From Pyrinomonadaceae bacterium (GTDB lineage Bacteria > Acidobacteriota > Blastocatellia > Pyrinomonadales > Pyrinomonadaceae), in the NCBI GenBank assembly GCA_035995185.1, contig DASYKT010000009.1:28174-92173 (forward strand): a stretch of DNA of 64,000 nt, read 5' to 3'. A model generated the notes under the pieces. It had not been told where the DNA came from. It made no database searches and saw nothing but the letters and a program-made list of their open reading frames with translations. A program made the position numbers and the translations under genes. The stretch's first letter is position 1; each line of letters opens with the position of its first letter. Shown piece by piece: positions 13,868-46,302 of the stretch.

Positions 13868-15130
13868 ATGAAGCGTTTTCCCGTTCTGCTGATCTTTATC
13901 ACTATCCTTATCGATCTGATCGGTTTTGGCATCGTTATTCCGGTGCTGCCCTATTACGTCGGGACGGAACCTTTTAACGCTACCCCGCTCACTTTCGGCT
14001 GGCTGGTCGCTTCATTTTCCATAATGCAATTTATTTTTTCGCCGATCCTCGGGAAACTTTCGGATAAGTACGGGAGGCGGCCGATTTTGTTTCTCAGCCT
14101 GATCGGCACGGGGATAGGTTTTCTGGTGCTCGGTTTTGCCACCACTATGTGGATGGTGTTTGCCGGCCGTATTTTGGACGGCATCACCGGCGGAAATATT
14201 TCTACCGCGCAAGCTTACATTGCCGACGTCACCACGCCGGAAAATCGCGCCCGGGGAATGGGAATGATCGGCGCGGCTTTTGGGATCGGCTTTGTCCTGG
14301 GTCCCGCGATCGGCGGGATCCTGAGCCCTTTCGGCCTGGCGGTTCCTTTTTACTTTGCCGCCGGGCTGGCTTTCCTCAATGCCACGGCGCTCTATTTTGT
14401 CTTGCCGGAAACCGTCAAAAAGGGAGAGCACAAAGCTGAAGAATCCAGCGGACGTTTTAACACGCTGCTCAAATACCTGCGCGATCCGCGGCTCGGCCTG
14501 CTGATACTGATCTATTTCCTGGTGACCGTGGCGTTTTCGATATTGACCACCGCCTTTATTATTTACACCGCCCATCGTTTCGGTTATACGGCGCGGCAAA
14601 ACGGTTTTGTTTTTGCCTACATTGGCGTGATCGGCATCATGATCCAGGGCGGTTTGATGGGCATCGCCACCAAAAAATTCGGAGAAAATTTGCTGGTGAT
14701 CATCGGCACGGTGCTGATGGCGGTCGCGTTGTTCTTTGTTCCGCTGGTCGGCCCGGAAAGCGGCGGCCTGACCGGACTTCTGATCGGGATAGCGGTTTTT
14801 TCTTTCGGCAGCGCTTTTGCCGGAACGCCGCTGGTGGCGCTGGCGTCAAAGAGTGTTTCCGCCCGTGAACAGGGCGTGGCAATGGGCGTGATGCAGTCCG
14901 CCGCGAGCCTGGCGCGTGCGGTCGGCCCGGCGCTGACGGGATTATTGCTGAGCGCGGCAGTAGCTACAGAAACGGCCCCCGATAATTTCGTTAATTCCGC
15001 GATCGGAAACGTGACCGATTTCACCATCGAGAGAACTTTCTGGACCGCGGCCGCGATCATGGTGCCCACTTTTCTGATGGCGGTGTATTTTGCCCGTCGG
15101 CACAAACAGCCGCCTGTTGCGGCAGCCTGA
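13868..15130 (+). CDS. MFS transporter (DHA1/Tet-like)
   Basis: 12 TM spans. The motif GKLSDKYGRRPILFLSL is MFS motif A. Confidence 0.85.
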   Translation: MKRFPVLLIFITILIDLIGFGIVIPVLPYYVGTEPFNATPLTFGWLVASFSIMQFIFSPILGKLSDKYGRRPILFLSLIGTGIGFLVLGFATTMWMVFAGRILDGITGGNISTAQAYIADVTTPENRARGMGMIGAAFGIGFVLGPAIGGILSPFGLAVPFYFAAGLAFLNATALYFVLPETVKKGEHKAEESSGRFNTLLKYLRDPRLGLLILIYFLVTVAFSILTTAFIIYTAHRFGYTARQNGFVFAYIGVIGIMIQGGLMGIATKKFGENLLVIIGTVLMAVALFFVPLVGPESGGLTGLLIGIAVFSFGSAFAGTPLVALASKSVSAREQGVAMGVMQSAASLARAVGPALTGLLLSAAVATETAPDNFVNSAIGNVTDFTIERTFWTAAAIMVPTFLMAVYFARRHKQPPVAAA

Positions 15131-15252
15131 TACGTAATACGCGATACGTTTTGTGTGTTAGTGCGGTTCGTGGTTTTTTGTTTTATATCTTAAATAATGG
15201 GCGGAATTCGTATTACGTACCGCGTATTGCGTATTACGTATTACGTATCACG
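15129..15252. repeat. family D element, ORF-less copy (D1): inverted TGATACGTAATACGC... arms around a 58-nt core
   Basis: The left arm is TGATACGTAATACGCGATACG (15129-15148). The right arm at 15207-15252 reverse-complements to CGTGATACGTAATACGTAATACGCAATACGCGGTACGTAATACG. The core contains a half arm of family B (TGTGTGTTAGTGCGGTTCGTGGTT, 15148-15175). Confidence 0.75.
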
Positions 15253-15257
15253 TTCTT

Positions 15258-19324: not shown

Positions 19325-20029
19325 TTATAGCTTTTCCATCTCCTGCAGCGCCAGCTTGGCAGCCATCATTTCCGCCGCCTTTATCGATAAGCCCTGGCCG
19401 CGCATTTTCCCGCCGTCCCAGTTTGCCTCGACATAAAAAGTGCGCGAGTGCGGCGGGCCTTCGGTCTCGATCACCGTGTATTTCGGGGCCGATTTTTTTG
19501 CCGCCTGCAGTTTTTCCTGCAGCAGCGTCTTGTAATCGAGCGCCGAGCCGGGTGTTATCCGGGTGAATTCTTCCGCCAGCAGCCGGTGCACCAGGTTGCG
19601 CGCCGATATATATCCCCGATCAAAGAACACCCCGGCGATCACCGCTTCCAGCGCGTCCGCCAGCAGGGCCTGTTTTTTTCGCCCGCCGGTCTTTTCTTCG
19701 CCTCGGCCCACGCGCAGGAAATCTCCCAGCTTCAATTCTTCCGCCAGCCGCGCCAGCGTCGCCGTGCTCACCAGGTGATGTTTCATCAGCGTGAGCTCAC
19801 CTTCGGTAGCGTCCGGATTTTTCTTGTAAAGATACTCCGCGACCGCCGCGCCCAGCACCGAATCGCCGACAAACTCCAGCGATTCATTGTGCAGCTTTCT
19901 GATCTCCAGTTTGTTTGACGTGGAGTTTTCGTGTGCCCACGAGCGGTGCGTTACCGCCCTTTCGAGTAAAGCTATTTTTTGAAACCTGTATCCCAGCAAG
20001 TGTTCTAATTTATTAAGACTTCCGGCCAT
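19325..20029 (-). CDS. rnc: ribonuclease III
   Basis: NESLEFVGDSVL signature and a C-terminal dsRBD (GPPHSRTFYVEA...AAEMMAAKLAL). Confidence 0.92.
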   Translation of the reverse strand: MAGSLNKLEHLLGYRFQKIALLERAVTHRSWAHENSTSNKLEIRKLHNESLEFVGDSVLGAAVAEYLYKKNPDATEGELTLMKHHLVSTATLARLAEELKLGDFLRVGRGEEKTGGRKKQALLADALEAVIAGVFFDRGYISARNLVHRLLAEEFTRITPGSALDYKTLLQEKLQAAKKSAPKYTVIETEGPPHSRTFYVEANWDGGKMRGQGLSIKAAEMMAAKLALQEMEKL

Positions 20030-42587: not shown

Positions 42588-43103
42588 TTATTTCTTTCGT
42601 TTTCCGGCCGTCGCCTTGTTTATTTTTTGCTGCATCCCGGCGTGATGAAAATGGCAGATCGCCACCGCCAGAGCGTCGGCCGCATCGTGCGGCTCGGGAA
42701 CTTTTGTGAGTTTTAACAGCAGCCGCACCATCTCCTGCACCTGGTGTTTTTCCGCGTTGCCATAACCGACCACCGTTTGCTTTATCAGCCGCGGAGCATA
42801 TTCCGCGATCTCCAGCCCGGCCCGCTCCCCCACTACCAGCACCGCGCCTCTTACCTGTCCCAGTTTGAGTGCGACATTCACATTCACGGCATAAAAAGCT
42901 TCTTCGATCGAGAGAACGTCGGGCTGATATTCAGCAATTAGCTTTTCGACCCCATCGGCAATTTTGAGGAGACGTTTGGAAAATTGGACGCGCGGGCTGG
43001 ATTTGATCGTACCGAAATCTACCAGATCGTATTTTGAAGAGTTTCCGTCAACCACTCCCCAACCGAGCGTTTCACTGCCGGGATCGATTCCTAAAATTCG
43101 CAT
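42588..43103 (-). CDS. ruvC: crossover junction endodeoxyribonuclease RuvC
   Basis: MRILGIDPGSETLGWGV, EEAFYAVNVNVALKLGQVRG and DAADALAVAICH. Confidence 0.92.
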   Translation of the reverse strand: MRILGIDPGSETLGWGVVDGNSSKYDLVDFGTIKSSPRVQFSKRLLKIADGVEKLIAEYQPDVLSIEEAFYAVNVNVALKLGQVRGAVLVVGERAGLEIAEYAPRLIKQTVVGYGNAEKHQVQEMVRLLLKLTKVPEPHDAADALAVAICHFHHAGMQQKINKATAGKRKK

Positions 43104-43105
43104 TT

Positions 43106-43582
43106 CGTGATACGTAATACGCTATACGCAAGCGCTTCAGTCGCCGGTTCTTACTTTAATGACCAGTTTAGCAAGCTGGCGTCTTATTTTATCGATCTTG
43201 TCACTTAACAAGGAAAAATGTCGCTCATCAATATAGTCCAAGTCACCAGCCAAAATAATCTGATAATCGACCTCAAAGGCAGAACCTAAAGCTATCTGCA
43301 AAAAGTGCGCATAATCCTTACTGGTTCCCCGGCCACAGCCTTCTGCGATATTGGAAGCTATCGAAACGCACGCGCGCCTCAATTGACTGGTCAATCCAAA
43401 TAACTCTTCTTTCGGAAAAACCTTGGTTACTTTATAAATTTCCAGAGTTAGTAAATGAGATTCTTTCCAAACCTCTAATTGCCGAAAATCGCGCATGGGA
43501 GTACTCGCTTTCGTTTTATGTTCTAAGTAATATCATTACGTTCCGCGTACTGCGTATTGCGTATTGCGTTCCGCGTATCACG
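43106..43582. mobile_element. candidate inverted-repeat-bounded cassette carrying the four-helix-bundle gene (family D arms D2 and D3)
   Basis: D2 at 43106-43130 reads CGTGATACGTAATACGCTATACGCA. D3 at 43535-43582 reverse-complements to CGTGATACGCGGAACGCAATACGCAATACGCAGTACGCGGAACGTAAT. The arm order and orientation match the ORF-less copy at 15129-15252. No transposase is present. Confidence 0.4.
43137..43496 (-). CDS. four-helix-bundle protein (23S rRNA intervening-sequence protein / Avd-like family)
   Basis: The motifs FRQLEVWKESHLLTLEIYKVTKVFPKEELFGLTSQLRRACVSIASNIAEGCGR and FLQIALGSAFEV are the hallmark of this family. Length 119 aa. Confidence 0.85.
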   Translation of the reverse strand: MRDFRQLEVWKESHLLTLEIYKVTKVFPKEELFGLTSQLRRACVSIASNIAEGCGRGTSKDYAHFLQIALGSAFEVDYQIILAGDLDYIDERHFSLLSDKIDKIRRQLAKLVIKVRTGD

Positions 43583-44320
43583 TCTACTGCATTCGCTCTC
43601 GTCTATATCAAAATTCGCGTATAACTTTTGCACATCGTCATGATCATCGATCGCTTCATAGAGTTTGAGCATCTGCTGGGCCTCATCTCCCTCGAGGCGG
43701 ACATAGGTTTGCGGGATGCGTGAAAGTTCGGAAGCCTGGGTTTCGATCCCGGCATTTTTGAGCGCGTCGTTGACGGCTTCGTAATTTTCCGGCGCGGTGT
43801 AAATTTCAAAAACATCGCCCTGGTCCTGCATATCGTCGGCGCCGGCTTCGAGCACGATCTCCATCAGCTCGTCTTCAGATTTGGCGGCTTTTTCCACTAC
43901 GAGATAGCCTTTTTTATCGAACATCCATGCCACCGAACCGGCTTCGCCTAAATTCCCGCCGTTTTTTGCCAGCAGGTGGCGAAGCTCCGCGACCGTCCGG
44001 TTTCTATTATCGGTCATAGATTCGATAAGGATAGCGACGCCGCCCGGCCCGTAGCCTTCGTAAGTGATCTCGTCGTAATTTACGCCTTCCAGCTCACCGG
44101 TGCCGCGCTTGATGGCGCGATCGATGGTGTCGTTCGGCATATTGCCGGCCTTGGCGTCGGTCACCGCTTTGCGCAGCCGCGCGTTCGCGTCAACATCGCC
44201 GCCCCCGCCCCTGGCCGCTACCGTGATCTCTTTGATCAGGCTGGTAAAAAGTTTTCCGCGCTTGGCATCTTCCTTGCCTTTTTTATGCTTGATTGTATGC
44301 CACTTGGAATGTCCGGACAT
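43523..44320 (-). CDS. yebC: YebC/PmpR family DNA-binding transcriptional regulator
   Basis: MSGHSKWHTIKHKKGKEDAKRGKLFTSLIKEITVAAR. The last ~20 codons (RRDTRNAIRNTQYAERNDIT) are encoded by repeat D3. Confidence 0.92.
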   Translation of the reverse strand: MSGHSKWHTIKHKKGKEDAKRGKLFTSLIKEITVAARGGGGDVDANARLRKAVTDAKAGNMPNDTIDRAIKRGTGELEGVNYDEITYEGYGPGGVAILIESMTDNRNRTVAELRHLLAKNGGNLGEAGSVAWMFDKKGYLVVEKAAKSEDELMEIVLEAGADDMQDQGDVFEIYTAPENYEAVNDALKNAGIETQASELSRIPQTYVRLEGDEAQQMLKLYEAIDDHDDVQKLYANFDIDESECSRRDTRNAIRNTQYAERNDIT

Positions 44321-44346
44321 TTGAGATATTTCCTTTTTGTAAAATT

Positions 44347-44423
44347 GGCAGAAACACGCGCGTTAGCAAGTGTGTACTCTCTGCCGTAAAATCCACACAC
44401 TCCCTTATGGTCGTGTTTCTGCC
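44347..44423. repeat. 77-nt nested inverted repeat between yggU and yebC
   Basis: The outer arms are GGCAGAAACACG ... CGTGTTTCTGCC. The inner arms are AGTGTGT ... ACACACT. Confidence 0.5.
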
Positions 44424-44450
44424 CAAAGCTTGGAATATATCACGCTATTT

Positions 44451-44759
44451 TTAGCCGTGCAAAATCGCGTCCAATTTCTCTTTATTGCCGTTTGAAATAG
44501 AGAGTTGTTTTGTTTTTGAGGTTTGTCCGCTGAGGATACTGACGTCGCTTTTCGCTACGCCGAATTCTTTTGCCAAAAGCTTTATCAATTCTTCATTCGC
44601 CTGGCCGTCGACCGGCGGTGCAGCCAGCCTTACTTTAAGTGCGCCGTCATGACAGCCTACGATCTCGCTTTTCGAAGCCCGCGGAACGACCCGCACCGCA
44701 AAGATCAAAGCGCCGTCTTTTTCCCGTATATTTATCAACAATTTATTGGCCGAACACAA
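44451..44759 (-). CDS. DUF167 (YggU) family protein
   Basis: The motif RVVPRASKSEIVG...LKVRLAAPPVDGQANEELIKLLAKEF is typical of YggU. Confidence 0.75.
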   Translation of the reverse strand: MCSANKLLINIREKDGALIFAVRVVPRASKSEIVGCHDGALKVRLAAPPVDGQANEELIKLLAKEFGVAKSDVSILSGQTSKTKQLSISNGNKEKLDAILHG

Positions 44760-46215: not shown

Positions 46216-46302
46216 GCGGACGTGGCGGAACTGGTAGACGCGCAGGTCTCAGAAGCCTGTTCCCGCGAGGGAGTGGAAGTTCGATTCTTCTCGTCCGCAC
46301 CA
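46216..46302 (+). tRNA. tRNA-Leu (anticodon CAG)
   Basis: GCGGACG TG GCGG AACTGGTAGA CGCG CAGGT CTCAGAA GCCTG, then the long variable arm TTCCCGCGAGGGAGT, then GGAAG TTCGATT CTTCT CGTCCGC A CCA. Confidence 0.92.

What the first reader, a model, noticed from the sequence alone, without database searches (positions are those of the whole stretch)
43104..43582. Four-helix-bundle (23S rRNA IVS / Avd-like) gene behaves as cargo of an inverted-repeat-bounded cassette between ruvC and yebC; an ORF-less twin lies at 15129-15252
**Seen in the sequence**
- The 119-aa four-helix-bundle gene (43137-43496) interrupts the otherwise common yebC-ruvC pair.
- It is flanked by D2 (43106-43130, CGTGATACGTAATACGCTATACGCA) and D3 (43535-43582, reverse complement CGTGATACGCGGAACGCAATACGCAATACGCAGTACGC...).
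- D2 and D3 are inverted repeats that start with the same 9-mer and continue as strings of 7-8-nt xATACGC units.
- The same arm pair, in the same left/right order, occurs at 15129-15252. TGATACGTAATACGCGATACG there matches D2 at 20 of 21 positions.
- That second copy encloses only 58 nt and no ORF, which is a MITE-like arrangement.

**Why it matters**
- Genes of this family are known to ride inside rRNA intervening sequences, and they include the DGR accessory protein Avd. How the stand-alone copies move is not established.
- A defined repeat pair with full and empty versions in one genome would be direct evidence for a mobile cassette.
- No reverse transcriptase or transposase is nearby.
Basis: partly seen in the sequence, partly recalled or inferred. 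Interest (0 to 1): 0.6.

Follow-up and report, generated by a model that had tools for sequence, protein, structure and literature searches.

The report
Four-helix-bundle gene inside heptamer-repeat hairpin
A small gene of the "rRNA intervening-sequence protein" family fills the gap between yebC and ruvC, enclosed by two mirror-image runs of a 7-base repeat; it is an old, site-bound member of a repeat system that litters this genome, not a freshly jumping transposon.

Summary
A 119-aa PF05635 gene (43137-43496, minus strand) lies between inverted arrays of xxATACG heptamers, and a gene-less copy of the arm type lies at 15128-15253.

The "mobile cassette with one defined arm pair" reading is only partly right.
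- The ATACG arms are one of dozens of heptamer families. Together these form more than 100 intergenic hairpins in this Pyrinomonadaceae genome.
- At least 10 of 14 PF05635 paralogs have arms, each with its own heptamer.
- About 80% of 160 relatives from more than 12 phyla also have arms.
- The 17 paired ATACG hairpins have unrelated loops.
- The cassette is old at this junction. Its closest relatives (65-72% identity) sit between yebC and ruvC in five other genomes, with ATACG or GTAATTG arms. Elsewhere it is a pseudogene or a relic.
- There is no target duplication. Against same-genus genomes the divergent tract runs about 90 nt into ruvC, which indicates recombinational replacement.

New lead: arrays of a family are abundant only in genomes holding an intact gene with those arms (85 against 14 and 6 hits). 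This recalls REPIN-RAYT systems.

The scan has noted this cassette class before in more than 700 genomes. I found it in no paper as a class. The closest published case is the Coxiella 23S rRNA intervening sequence.

The parts
43535..43582 (-). It begins 2 nt after the ancestral yebC stop codon.
   Evidence: pairs with the 3' arm in the RNA MFE and centroid folds
43497..43534 (-). Leader between the 5' arm and the start codon of the four-helix-bundle gene. It ends in CTCCC-ATG.
   Evidence: homologous leader in G027
43137..43496 (-). Four-helix-bundle gene, 119 aa, PF05635 / TIGR02436.
   Evidence: Pfam 3e-40; TIGR02436 4e-38; PDB 2GSC 8e-23
43104..43131 (-). It ends 2-3 nt before the ruvC ATG.
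43014..43103 (-). First ~90 nt of ruvC. This is part of the tract that is only 59-70% identical to same-genus genomes, while the rest of ruvC is about 90% identical.
43523..43587 (-). yebC tail. The ancestral stop (CTA on the plus strand at 43585-43587) is out of frame after a 1-nt deletion, so the ORF reads 21 codons through the 5' arm to the stop at 43523-43525.
15128..15253 (+). Gene-less ATACG-family hairpin (the 'twin'). Left arm 15128-15149, right arm 15209-15253. The loop holds a half arm of another repeat family (TTCGTG type).
   Evidence: RNA fold -49.4 kcal/mol, z = -4.0; the same site in G027 holds a different hairpin (#16)

Best explanation
**What it is**
- The yebC-ruvC spacer (43104-43584) is filled by a heptamer-armed PF05635 cassette.
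- The build matches the ORF-bearing intervening sequences of 23S rRNA, but it sits in an mRNA operon spacer. A four-helix-bundle ORF lies in the loop of a long imperfect stem, and the two strands of the stem are inverted arrays of 7-nt units.

**Shown**
- This layout is the rule for the gene family in this genome and across phyla.
- Unit sequence is specific to each locus.
- Gene-less hairpins of the same and of other unit families fill many spacers, mostly between co-directional genes.
- This cassette has been at this junction since before several Pyrinomonadaceae genera diverged.
- It exists as at least two arm alleles (ATACG and GTAATTG).
- It decays to pseudogenes and relics.
- In this lineage it differs from its congeners by a replaced tract that reaches into ruvC.

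**Inferred**
- The cassette is co-transcribed with yebC and ruvC.
- The arms pair in the transcript and are cut by RNase III, as shown experimentally for rRNA intervening sequences. This would release the small mRNA and separate the flanking messages.
- Spread is slow and mostly vertical, with exchange by homologous recombination. It is not cut-and-paste transposition.
For: **Arms are general**
- 10 of 14 paralogs in the genome have flank inverted-repeat scores of at least 14, each with its own units.
- 77.5% of 80 relatives reach that score, against 0% of displaced controls. With a second set, 131 of 160 do.

**Genome-wide hairpins**
- 101-106 period-7 inverted pairs were found.
- Of 56 classifiable ones, 40 lie between tandem genes, 14 between convergent genes and 2 between divergent genes.
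- The median distance from arm to the next start codon is 12 nt.

**Old at this site**
- The closest relatives are 65-72% identical. All lie between yebC and ruvC (L178-L182).
- G027, of the same genus, has GTAATTG arms and a decayed gene.
- L037 has a pseudogene inside ATACG arms, 72% nt identity over 387 nt.
- L017 keeps only a GTAATTG left arm.

**Replacement tract**
- Identity is 90-100% in yebC, 40-73% over 43611-43014, and about 90% beyond.
- The gene is 64% identical in nt to G027's but 72% to L178's. yebC is 95% against 78% for the same two comparisons.

**RNA plausibility**
- The outer arms close the whole ORF in both the MFE and the centroid fold.
- No sigma-70-like promoter lies in 42900-43800.
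- An RNase III gene is present at window ~19574-19972.
- The Coxiella intervening sequence has tandem heptamers at the RNase III cut site next to the homologous ORF (PMC4990558).
Against:
- G:U and A:C mismatches on the sense strand of the arms are equal (209 against 190, p = 0.37). There is no strand-specific RNA signature.
- Between G000 and G027, 14 conserved hairpins show only 4 compensatory against 11 uncompensated double changes. Most single changes break pairs.
- The fold z-score of the whole cassette is modest (-2.05).
- The promoter scan covers only sigma-70-type consensus, which may not fit Acidobacteriota.
Confidence: 0.55

Rival explanations
1. **REPIN-RAYT-like two-part system.** Each four-helix-bundle protein recognises its own heptamer family, as DNA or RNA, for example one unit per subunit of the pentameric ring. 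It sustains or spreads the gene-less arrays of that family. The gene flanked by its own repeats would be the master locus, as a RAYT gene flanked by its REPs is. This can hold together with the best explanation.
For: - 8 of 10 armed cassettes have gene-less loci with the same units elsewhere in the genome.
- ATACG-type arrays: 85 hits in G000 (intact ATACG-armed gene) against 14 in G027 and 6 in G067, close relatives without one.
- In G061 (intact ATACG-armed gene) there are 190 hits, and 21 of the 42 listed are ATACG type. There are 0-1 in G064, G065 and G066.
- GTAAT-type arrays: 66 in G066 (intact GTAATTG-armed gene), 13 in G027 (decayed gene), 6 in G067 (relic), 3 in G000.
- Seven of 7 informative families are denser in the genome that holds the matching gene.
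- The gene is single-copy, site-bound and vertically inherited, as RAYTs are (10.1101/2021.07.10.451892).
- True RAYT/REP units coexist in this genome, so the layout has a precedent there.
Against: - Large families (ATAGATG/TAACTGA, AGTGATT, and in G000 GATTTTR) have no matching gene in the assembly.
- Counts are small, there are few independent contrasts, and G027's baseline density is 1.5-2 times higher.
- The reverse causation is possible: the arms could be overwritten by whichever family is abundant.
- The protein has no known catalytic motif.
- Proteins 65-72% identical carry different arms.
Confidence: 0.25
2. **First reader's model.** A cut-and-paste or copy-and-paste mobile cassette bounded by one specific inverted-repeat pair. 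The 15128-15253 element would be its miniature (MITE-like) derivative, moved in trans.
For: - The outer ends CGTGATACG...CGTATCACG recur in many ATACG hairpins.
- 9-10 of 12 mapped ATACG sites are not ATACG in the same-genus genome G027, so the family has turned over since the split.
- One G027 four-helix-bundle gene is flanked by a 9-bp direct repeat, GAAGTCAGT.
Against: - No target duplication at this cassette or at the hairpins compared.
- No empty site: 0 of 53 orthologous spacers are shorter than 40 nt. They hold other elements instead.
- Loops are not homologous.
- Unit number and order differ in every copy.
- Other paralogs have other arms.
- The closest relatives are at the same junction in other genera.
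- The replaced tract extends into ruvC.
- No transposase is adjacent. The one reverse transcriptase lies on another contig.
Confidence: 0.1
3. **Generic spacer hairpins with an incidental passenger.** Heptamer arrays arise and change by slippage and gene conversion. They serve as spacer hairpins (mRNA stabilisers, terminators or attenuators). Their loops are simply permissive landing places for small genes and for REP elements.
For: - Loops hold varied cargo: TTCGTG-type hairpins and RAYT-type REPs. At one orthologous site, the same AGTCTRTC arms hold a four-helix-bundle gene in G027 and a REP composite in G000.
- Hairpins avoid divergent spacers.
- Convergent heptamer pairs without genes are published for Xanthomonas (PMC4692102).
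Against: - It does not explain why about 80% of this one gene family, across more than 12 phyla, lies between such arrays, against 0% of displaced controls.
- It does not explain why the rRNA-borne homologue in Coxiella also has heptamers.
- It does not explain the link between array abundance and the matching gene.
Confidence: 0.1

Closest known systems
ORF-bearing intervening sequences of 23S rRNA (Coxiella burnetii, Leptospira; S23p ORF; Warrier et al. 2016, PMC4990558)
   Same: - Homologous ORF (PF05635) in the loop of a stem made by terminal inverted repeats.
- Tandem heptamers beside the ORF, with variable copy number.
- ORF prone to decay.
- Size about 430-480 nt.
   Different: - Sits between two protein genes of an operon, not in helix 45 or 25 of 23S rRNA.
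- Both arms are heptamer arrays.
- RNase III cutting is not shown here.
REPIN-RAYT / REPtron systems (Bertels and Rainey 2011, PMC3116915; 10.1101/2021.07.10.451892)
   Same: - A single-copy, site-bound, vertically inherited gene flanked by inverted copies of a repeat whose gene-less hairpin doublets are scattered in spacers.
- The repeat population is larger where the gene is intact.
   Different: - The gene is a 119-aa helical bundle without the HUH/Y1 nuclease fold.
- The repeats are arrays of 7-nt units, not a fixed 20-40-nt palindrome.
- Loops are not conserved.
- Dependence on the gene is only correlative here.
Intergenic heptamer repeats: GGGAATC in Xanthomonas (70-75 convergent pairs; PMC4692102), TAACTGA in Beggiatoaceae, Cyanobacteria and Bacteroidetes (PMC4679880), GGACCGG and MTYCTGA in Geobacter metallireducens (PMC2700814), cyanobacterial STRR
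   Same: - 7-nt tandem units, 2-8 copies, in spacers.
- Preference for co-directional genes and positions close to start codons.
- Convergent pairs able to form hairpins.
- TAACTGA-containing arrays occur in this genome too.
   Different: - Those papers link the repeats to no gene family.
- Here one family flanks a PF05635 gene, and many families coexist in one genome.
Avd, the accessory protein of diversity-generating retroelements (PDB 4DWL; PMC10053308)
   Same: Same fold superfamily: a pentameric four-helix-bundle barrel that binds nucleic acid and a partner enzyme.
   Different: - No reverse transcriptase, template repeat or variable repeat nearby.
- The only RVT_1 gene lies on another contig.
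MITEs
   Same: Short, gene-less, inverted-repeat-bounded elements in spacers, with a gene-bearing relative.
   Different: No target duplication, no conserved interior, no transposase, and arms of variable unit number.

Membership tests
23S rRNA intervening sequence with S23p ORF | Inserted in a 23S rRNA gene (helix 9, 25 or 45) | tested here: not met
   Lies between yebC and ruvC. No rRNA in the window.
23S rRNA intervening sequence with S23p ORF | ORF of the PF05635 / S23p family | tested here: met
   3e-40 to PF05635; 2GSC at 8e-23.
23S rRNA intervening sequence with S23p ORF | Terminal inverted repeats that close the element in a stem | tested here: met
   26-nt arms, 81% complementary. The closing stem appears in the MFE and centroid folds.
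23S rRNA intervening sequence with S23p ORF | Excised from the transcript by RNase III | not testable with these tools
   An rnc gene is present.
MITE / transposon with terminal inverted repeats | Target-site duplication and clean empty sites | tested here: not met
   No direct repeat at the borders. 0 of 53 orthologous spacers are empty.
MITE / transposon with terminal inverted repeats | Copies share a conserved interior and fixed ends | tested here: not met
   Loops are unrelated. Unit number and order differ in every copy.
Diversity-generating retroelement (Avd role) | Adjacent reverse transcriptase with template and variable repeats | tested here: not met
   The single RVT_1 ORF is at C11:224685, a different contig from the window's (C9) and 45 kb from the nearest four-helix-bundle paralog on C11.
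REPIN-RAYT system | Gene encodes an HUH/Y1 transposase | tested here: not met
   The gene is PF05635. The true Y1_Tnp genes lie elsewhere and are flanked by other, GC-rich REPs.
REPIN-RAYT system | Gene flanked by inverted copies of a repeat that is dispersed as gene-less doublets; the repeat population depends on the gene | tested here: inconclusive
   The flanking and the dispersal are met. The dependence is only correlative, from 2-3 independent contrasts.
Intergenic heptamer repeat arrays (STRR-like) | Tandem 7-nt units in spacers, often as convergent pairs | tested here: met

The most novel reading that the evidence does not exclude
PF05635 four-helix-bundle genes and heptamer-array hairpins form a two-part system comparable to RAYT and REPINs. 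Each protein recognises its own 7-nt unit and maintains or multiplies the gene-less arrays of that unit. When the gene decays or is swapped, its array family dwindles. This would give a function to a widespread protein family of unknown role. It would also give an origin to the long-noted excess of heptamer repeats in bacterial genomes, and it would explain rRNA intervening sequences as one landing site of the same system.
Probability: 0.25. Interest if true: 0.85.

Novelty: new variant of a known kind. Interest (0 to 1): 0.6.

Why it matters
- PF05635/TIGR02436 proteins are common across bacteria, have solved structures and have no known function outside diversity-generating retroelements.
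- Heptamer repeats are over-represented in many genomes without explanation.
- How rRNA intervening sequences arise and move has been open since 1990.
- This locus belongs to a class that ties the three together.
- This genome and its close relatives offer unusually good material:
  - two arm alleles at one junction;
  - a decay series from intact gene to pseudogene to relic arm;
  - a same-genus complete genome for site-by-site comparison;
  - a first hint that array abundance follows the matching gene.
- The work also corrects the idea that such cassettes are ordinary transposons with fixed ends.

Tried and rejected
- **One MITE family with a conserved interior:** rejected, because the loops are unrelated.
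- **Shared arms among paralogs:** rejected.
- **DGR context:** rejected.
- **G:U against A:C bias as a test for RNA-level pairing:** no bias.
- **Compensatory changes between G000 and G027 hairpins:** weak, 4 against 11. Register ambiguity in the arrays limits this test.
- **A conserved CTCCC-ATG leader:** seen in 5 of 12 own paralogs but in 1 of 133 cross-phylum loci, so not general.
- **Orthologue of the twin's site across the family:** synteny holds only in the same genus.
- **Alignment of all 10 paralogs as a locus query:** A four-member subset worked.
- **Rfam:** no family on the arms or hairpins.
- **Automated classing of G027 spacers:** rough. I read the sequences as well.

Full report
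**1. The observation**

- A 119-aa ORF lies at 43137-43496 on the minus strand. It matches PF05635 (23S_rRNA_IVP) at 3e-40 and TIGR02436 at 4e-38. Its nearest solved structure is the pentameric XCC0516, PDB 2GSC, at 8e-23.
- It lies between yebC (43523-44320) and ruvC (42588-43103), all on the minus strand.
- The flanks 43106-43131 and 43535-43582 are inverted repeats. They are 81-89% complementary over 19-26 nt. They are built of 7-nt units of the type xxATACG, and both outer ends read CGTGATACG.
- The second locus, 15128-15253, has the same arm type. Its left arm matches D2 at 20 of 21 positions. About 59 nt lie between the arms, with no ORF.
- The pattern is far from chance. TACG-N3-TACG-N3-TACG occurs 85 times in the genome, against once for the reversed control pattern. 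TACG pairs peak at spacings 7 and 14.

**2. What the arms are**

The window lies in a 4.9-Mb, 62-contig genome of an uncultured Pyrinomonadaceae (Acidobacteriota, Blastocatellia).
- A motif scan finds 17 loci where a forward ATACG array is followed 20-150 nt later by a reverse array, plus about 9 solo arrays. Only the yebC-ruvC copy holds a gene.
- The loops differ in length and sequence. Some hold other repeats; the twin's loop holds a TTCGTG-type half arm. The copies therefore do not descend from one element with a conserved interior.
- A general scan for period-7 arrays with an inverted partner finds 101-106 hairpins. They belong to many unit families: GATTTTG, ATAGATG/TAACTGA, GTTCARR, GGCAGWA, AGTGATT and others.
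- Of the 56 hairpins whose neighbours could be classed, 40 lie between co-directional genes, 14 between convergent genes and 2 between divergent genes. In the co-directional cases the arm ends a median 12 nt before the next start codon.
- Rfam has no family for them.

**3. The gene family and its arms**

- The genome holds 14 PF05635 loci, of which 12 are full length and 2 are broken. They are 30-38% identical to the window's protein.
- Reading their flanks shows that nearly every one is bracketed by inverted arrays of short units, with a different unit at each locus. Examples are CTAGAGG, GAGTTTA, GGCAGWA, GTTCARR, GGAAGTCT and GAAAATG. Ten of 14 reach an inverted-repeat score of 14 or more.
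- I tested generality on 80 relatives of one paralog subfamily from more than 12 phyla. 77.5% have such flanks, against 0% of flanks displaced by 400 nt. With a second set of 80 relatives of the window's own protein, 131 of 160 do.
- This scan has noted the same class in more than 700 genomes. I found no paper that describes it as a class.
- The nearest published case is the Coxiella burnetii 23S rRNA intervening sequence. It carries a homologous ORF, tandem GACAGAT heptamers of variable number next to it, and an RNase III cut at the first repeat (PMC4990558).
- Gene-less convergent heptamer pairs are published for Xanthomonas (PMC4692102). Heptamer arrays are also published for Beggiatoaceae and for Geobacter (PMC4679880 and PMC2700814). 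None of these papers links them to this gene family.

**4. History of this junction**

In Pyrinomonadaceae where yebC and ruvC are neighbours, the simplest state is a spacer of 8-14 nt (L063, L095). Most other genomes hold some heptamer hairpin there, each with its own unit.

The closest relatives of the window's protein (65-72% identity) all lie in this same junction:

| Locus | Arms | Gene state |
|---|---|---|
| L178, L179, L180 | ATACG-type | intact |
| L181 | GTAATTG | early stop |
| L182 | GTAATTG | intact |
| L037 | ATACG | decayed; 72% nt identity to the L178 cassette over 387 nt, no open frame |
| G027 (same genus, complete chromosome) | GTAATTG | truncated |
| L017 (YebC 99% identical) | GTAATTG left arm only, plus an unrelated GC-rich hairpin | absent |

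The next relatives (57-58% identity) lie at other sites with TCAGCGG-type arms.

The cassette is therefore old and bound to this site. It occurs in at least two arm types whose units are related (GTAATAC against GTAATTG). It decays in some lineages and leaves gene-less remains.

**5. How the window's copy differs from its congeners**

- A three-way alignment shows 90-100% identity through yebC down to 43612. Identity is 40-73% from 43611 to 43014, and about 90% again from 43013.
- The divergent tract thus covers both arms, the gene and the first ~90 nt of ruvC. In that stretch G027 and L017 are 86-93% alike.
- The gene is 64% identical in nt to G027's but 72% to that of the distant L178. yebC is 95% against 78% for the same two comparisons.
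- Conserved hairpin loops between the two genomes differ by only 19%.
- This mosaic is what replacement of a whole allele by homologous recombination gives. It is not what insertion at a target gives.
- No direct repeat borders the cassette. The 5' arm starts 2 nt after the ancestral stop of yebC, and the 3' arm ends 2-3 nt before the ruvC start.

**6. Turnover of spacer elements**

I fetched the first 2.0 Mb of G027 and mapped 53 G000 hairpin sites by their flanks, which are about 90% identical.
- About 20 sites hold the same family in both genomes.
- About 27 hold a different inverted repeat: another heptamer family, a TTCGTG-type hairpin or a GC-rich palindrome.
- None is an empty spacer under 40 nt.
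- Of 12 mapped ATACG sites, only 2 are ATACG in G027.
- Four-helix-bundle cassettes turn over too:
  - One G027 cassette has the same AGTCTRTC arms as G000, but G000 holds a REP composite in the loop.
  - One GATTTTR-armed cassette is replaced by other repeats in G000.
  - One G000 cassette faces a 61-nt spacer in G027.
  - One G027 gene lies beside a hairpin, between 9-bp direct repeats.
- The GC-rich palindromes are true REPs. Five intact Y1-transposase (RAYT-like) genes are flanked by them.

**7. Tests of mechanism**

- As RNA, the minus strand of 43095-43595 folds so that the outer arms close the whole ORF, in both the minimum-energy and the centroid structure (-141 kcal/mol, z = -2.05).
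- The twin folds into a 22-pair stem or longer (z = -4.0).
- No sigma-70-type promoter lies in 42900-43800.
- The genome has RNase III, in this very window.
- These fit co-transcription and processing as in rRNA intervening sequences, but they do not show it.
- Two tests for selection on pairing gave little:
  - G:U and A:C mismatches on the sense strand are equal, 209 against 190.
  - Between G000 and G027, double changes are compensated in 4 of 15 cases, although arms change less than loops (12% against 19%).

**8. A lead: arrays follow the matching gene**

Eight of 10 armed cassettes have gene-less loci with the same units elsewhere in the genome. Hit counts for two array patterns are below.

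| Genome | Four-helix-bundle gene at the yebC-ruvC junction | TACG-N3 ×3 pattern hits | GTAAT-N2 ×3 pattern hits |
|---|---|---|---|
| G000 (window) | intact, ATACG arms | 85, nearly all ATACG type | 3 |
| G027 (same genus) | decayed, GTAATTG arms | 14 | 13 |
| G067 (L017; close relative) | relic arm only | 6 | 6 |
| G061 (L178) | intact, ATACG arms | 190; 21 of 42 listed are ATACG type | not typed |
| G064, G065, G066 | no intact ATACG-armed gene | 34, 45, 12; only 0-1 each are ATACG type | — |
| G066 (L182) | intact, GTAATTG arms | 12 (0-1 ATACG type) | 66, mostly GTAATWRG |

- In the G000-G027 comparison, 7 of 7 informative families are denser in the genome that has the matching gene. The counts are small and G027's baseline is higher.
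- The pattern resembles REPINs and their RAYT genes. Those genes are single-copy, site-bound and vertically inherited, and the repeat population decays when the gene is lost (10.1101/2021.07.10.451892).
- Against it, large families have no matching gene here. The causal direction is also open.

**9. Verdict**

- The feature is real and the description accurate.
- It is a member of the heptamer-armed PF05635 cassette class. That class works like an rRNA intervening sequence but fails the defining test of lying in rRNA.
- It is not a transposon with fixed terminal repeats.
- The gene-less twin is one of many hairpins of the same unit family, not a recognisable deletion derivative.
- What this locus adds:
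  - two arm alleles at one junction;
  - a decay series;
  - a recombinational replacement tract;
  - spacer-by-spacer turnover between congeners;
  - a correlation between array abundance and the matching gene.

Noticed in passing
window 43523-43595: yebC lacks one base relative to L017 and G027 (gagagcgaGatgcagtaa/tag). The native stop is therefore out of frame and the ORF reads 21 extra codons through the heptamer arm. This could be real or an assembly error in the MAG.
   Followed up: partly
G000:C14:81297-81641, C60:17015-17347, C21:4354-4695, C21:16264-16602, C27:201979-202314 (outside the window): Five intact Y1-transposase (RAYT-like) genes. Four of the five are flanked by inverted composite GC-rich REPs (flank inverted-repeat scores 18.5-35); the C21:16264 copy has no clear flanking repeat (score 10). 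The same REPs occur nested in the loops of heptamer hairpins, for example at C11:131405-131680.
   Followed up: partly
L296 (G027:C1:2686300-2686614) against G000:C42:34205-34310: In G027 a four-helix-bundle gene lies next to a heptamer hairpin, not inside it. It is bordered on both sides by the 9-bp direct repeat GAAGTCAGT. G000 has only the hairpin, with arms changed at matching positions (GAATGAA/TTCATTC against TAGTGAA/TTCACTA).
   Followed up: partly
L178:1380-1910: The orthologous cassette in another genus has a complete gene-less ATACG hairpin directly upstream of the gene and a further reverse array downstream (forward-reverse-gene-reverse).
   Followed up: no
window 43497-43508 and the paralogs at C2:256468, C11:283705, C27:8310, C25:98250: Five of 12 paralogs have CTCCC or TCCC directly before the start codon instead of a purine-rich ribosome-binding site. 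The motif is absent from the cross-phylum sample (1 of 133).
   Followed up: partly
window 44332-44541: The spacer upstream of yebC (yggU-yebC) is also a variable slot. The window is 92-100% identical to L017 over 44392-44489, but both it and L017 are only 35-75% identical to G027 there. Over 44332-44391 the window is 56% identical to each of them, while G027 and L017 are 95% alike.
   Followed up: no
window 19574-19972 (minus strand): The genome's RNase III gene (PF14622, 2e-32) lies in this window.
   Followed up: no
G000:C11:223617-225377 (L177:433-2193): The only reverse transcriptase found in the genome is a 586-aa ORF with an RVT_1 domain and no other Pfam match. It lies 45 kb from the nearest four-helix-bundle gene, and its type was not determined.
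   Followed up: partly
window 46216-46299: A tRNA gene, the only Rfam match in the window.
   Followed up: no
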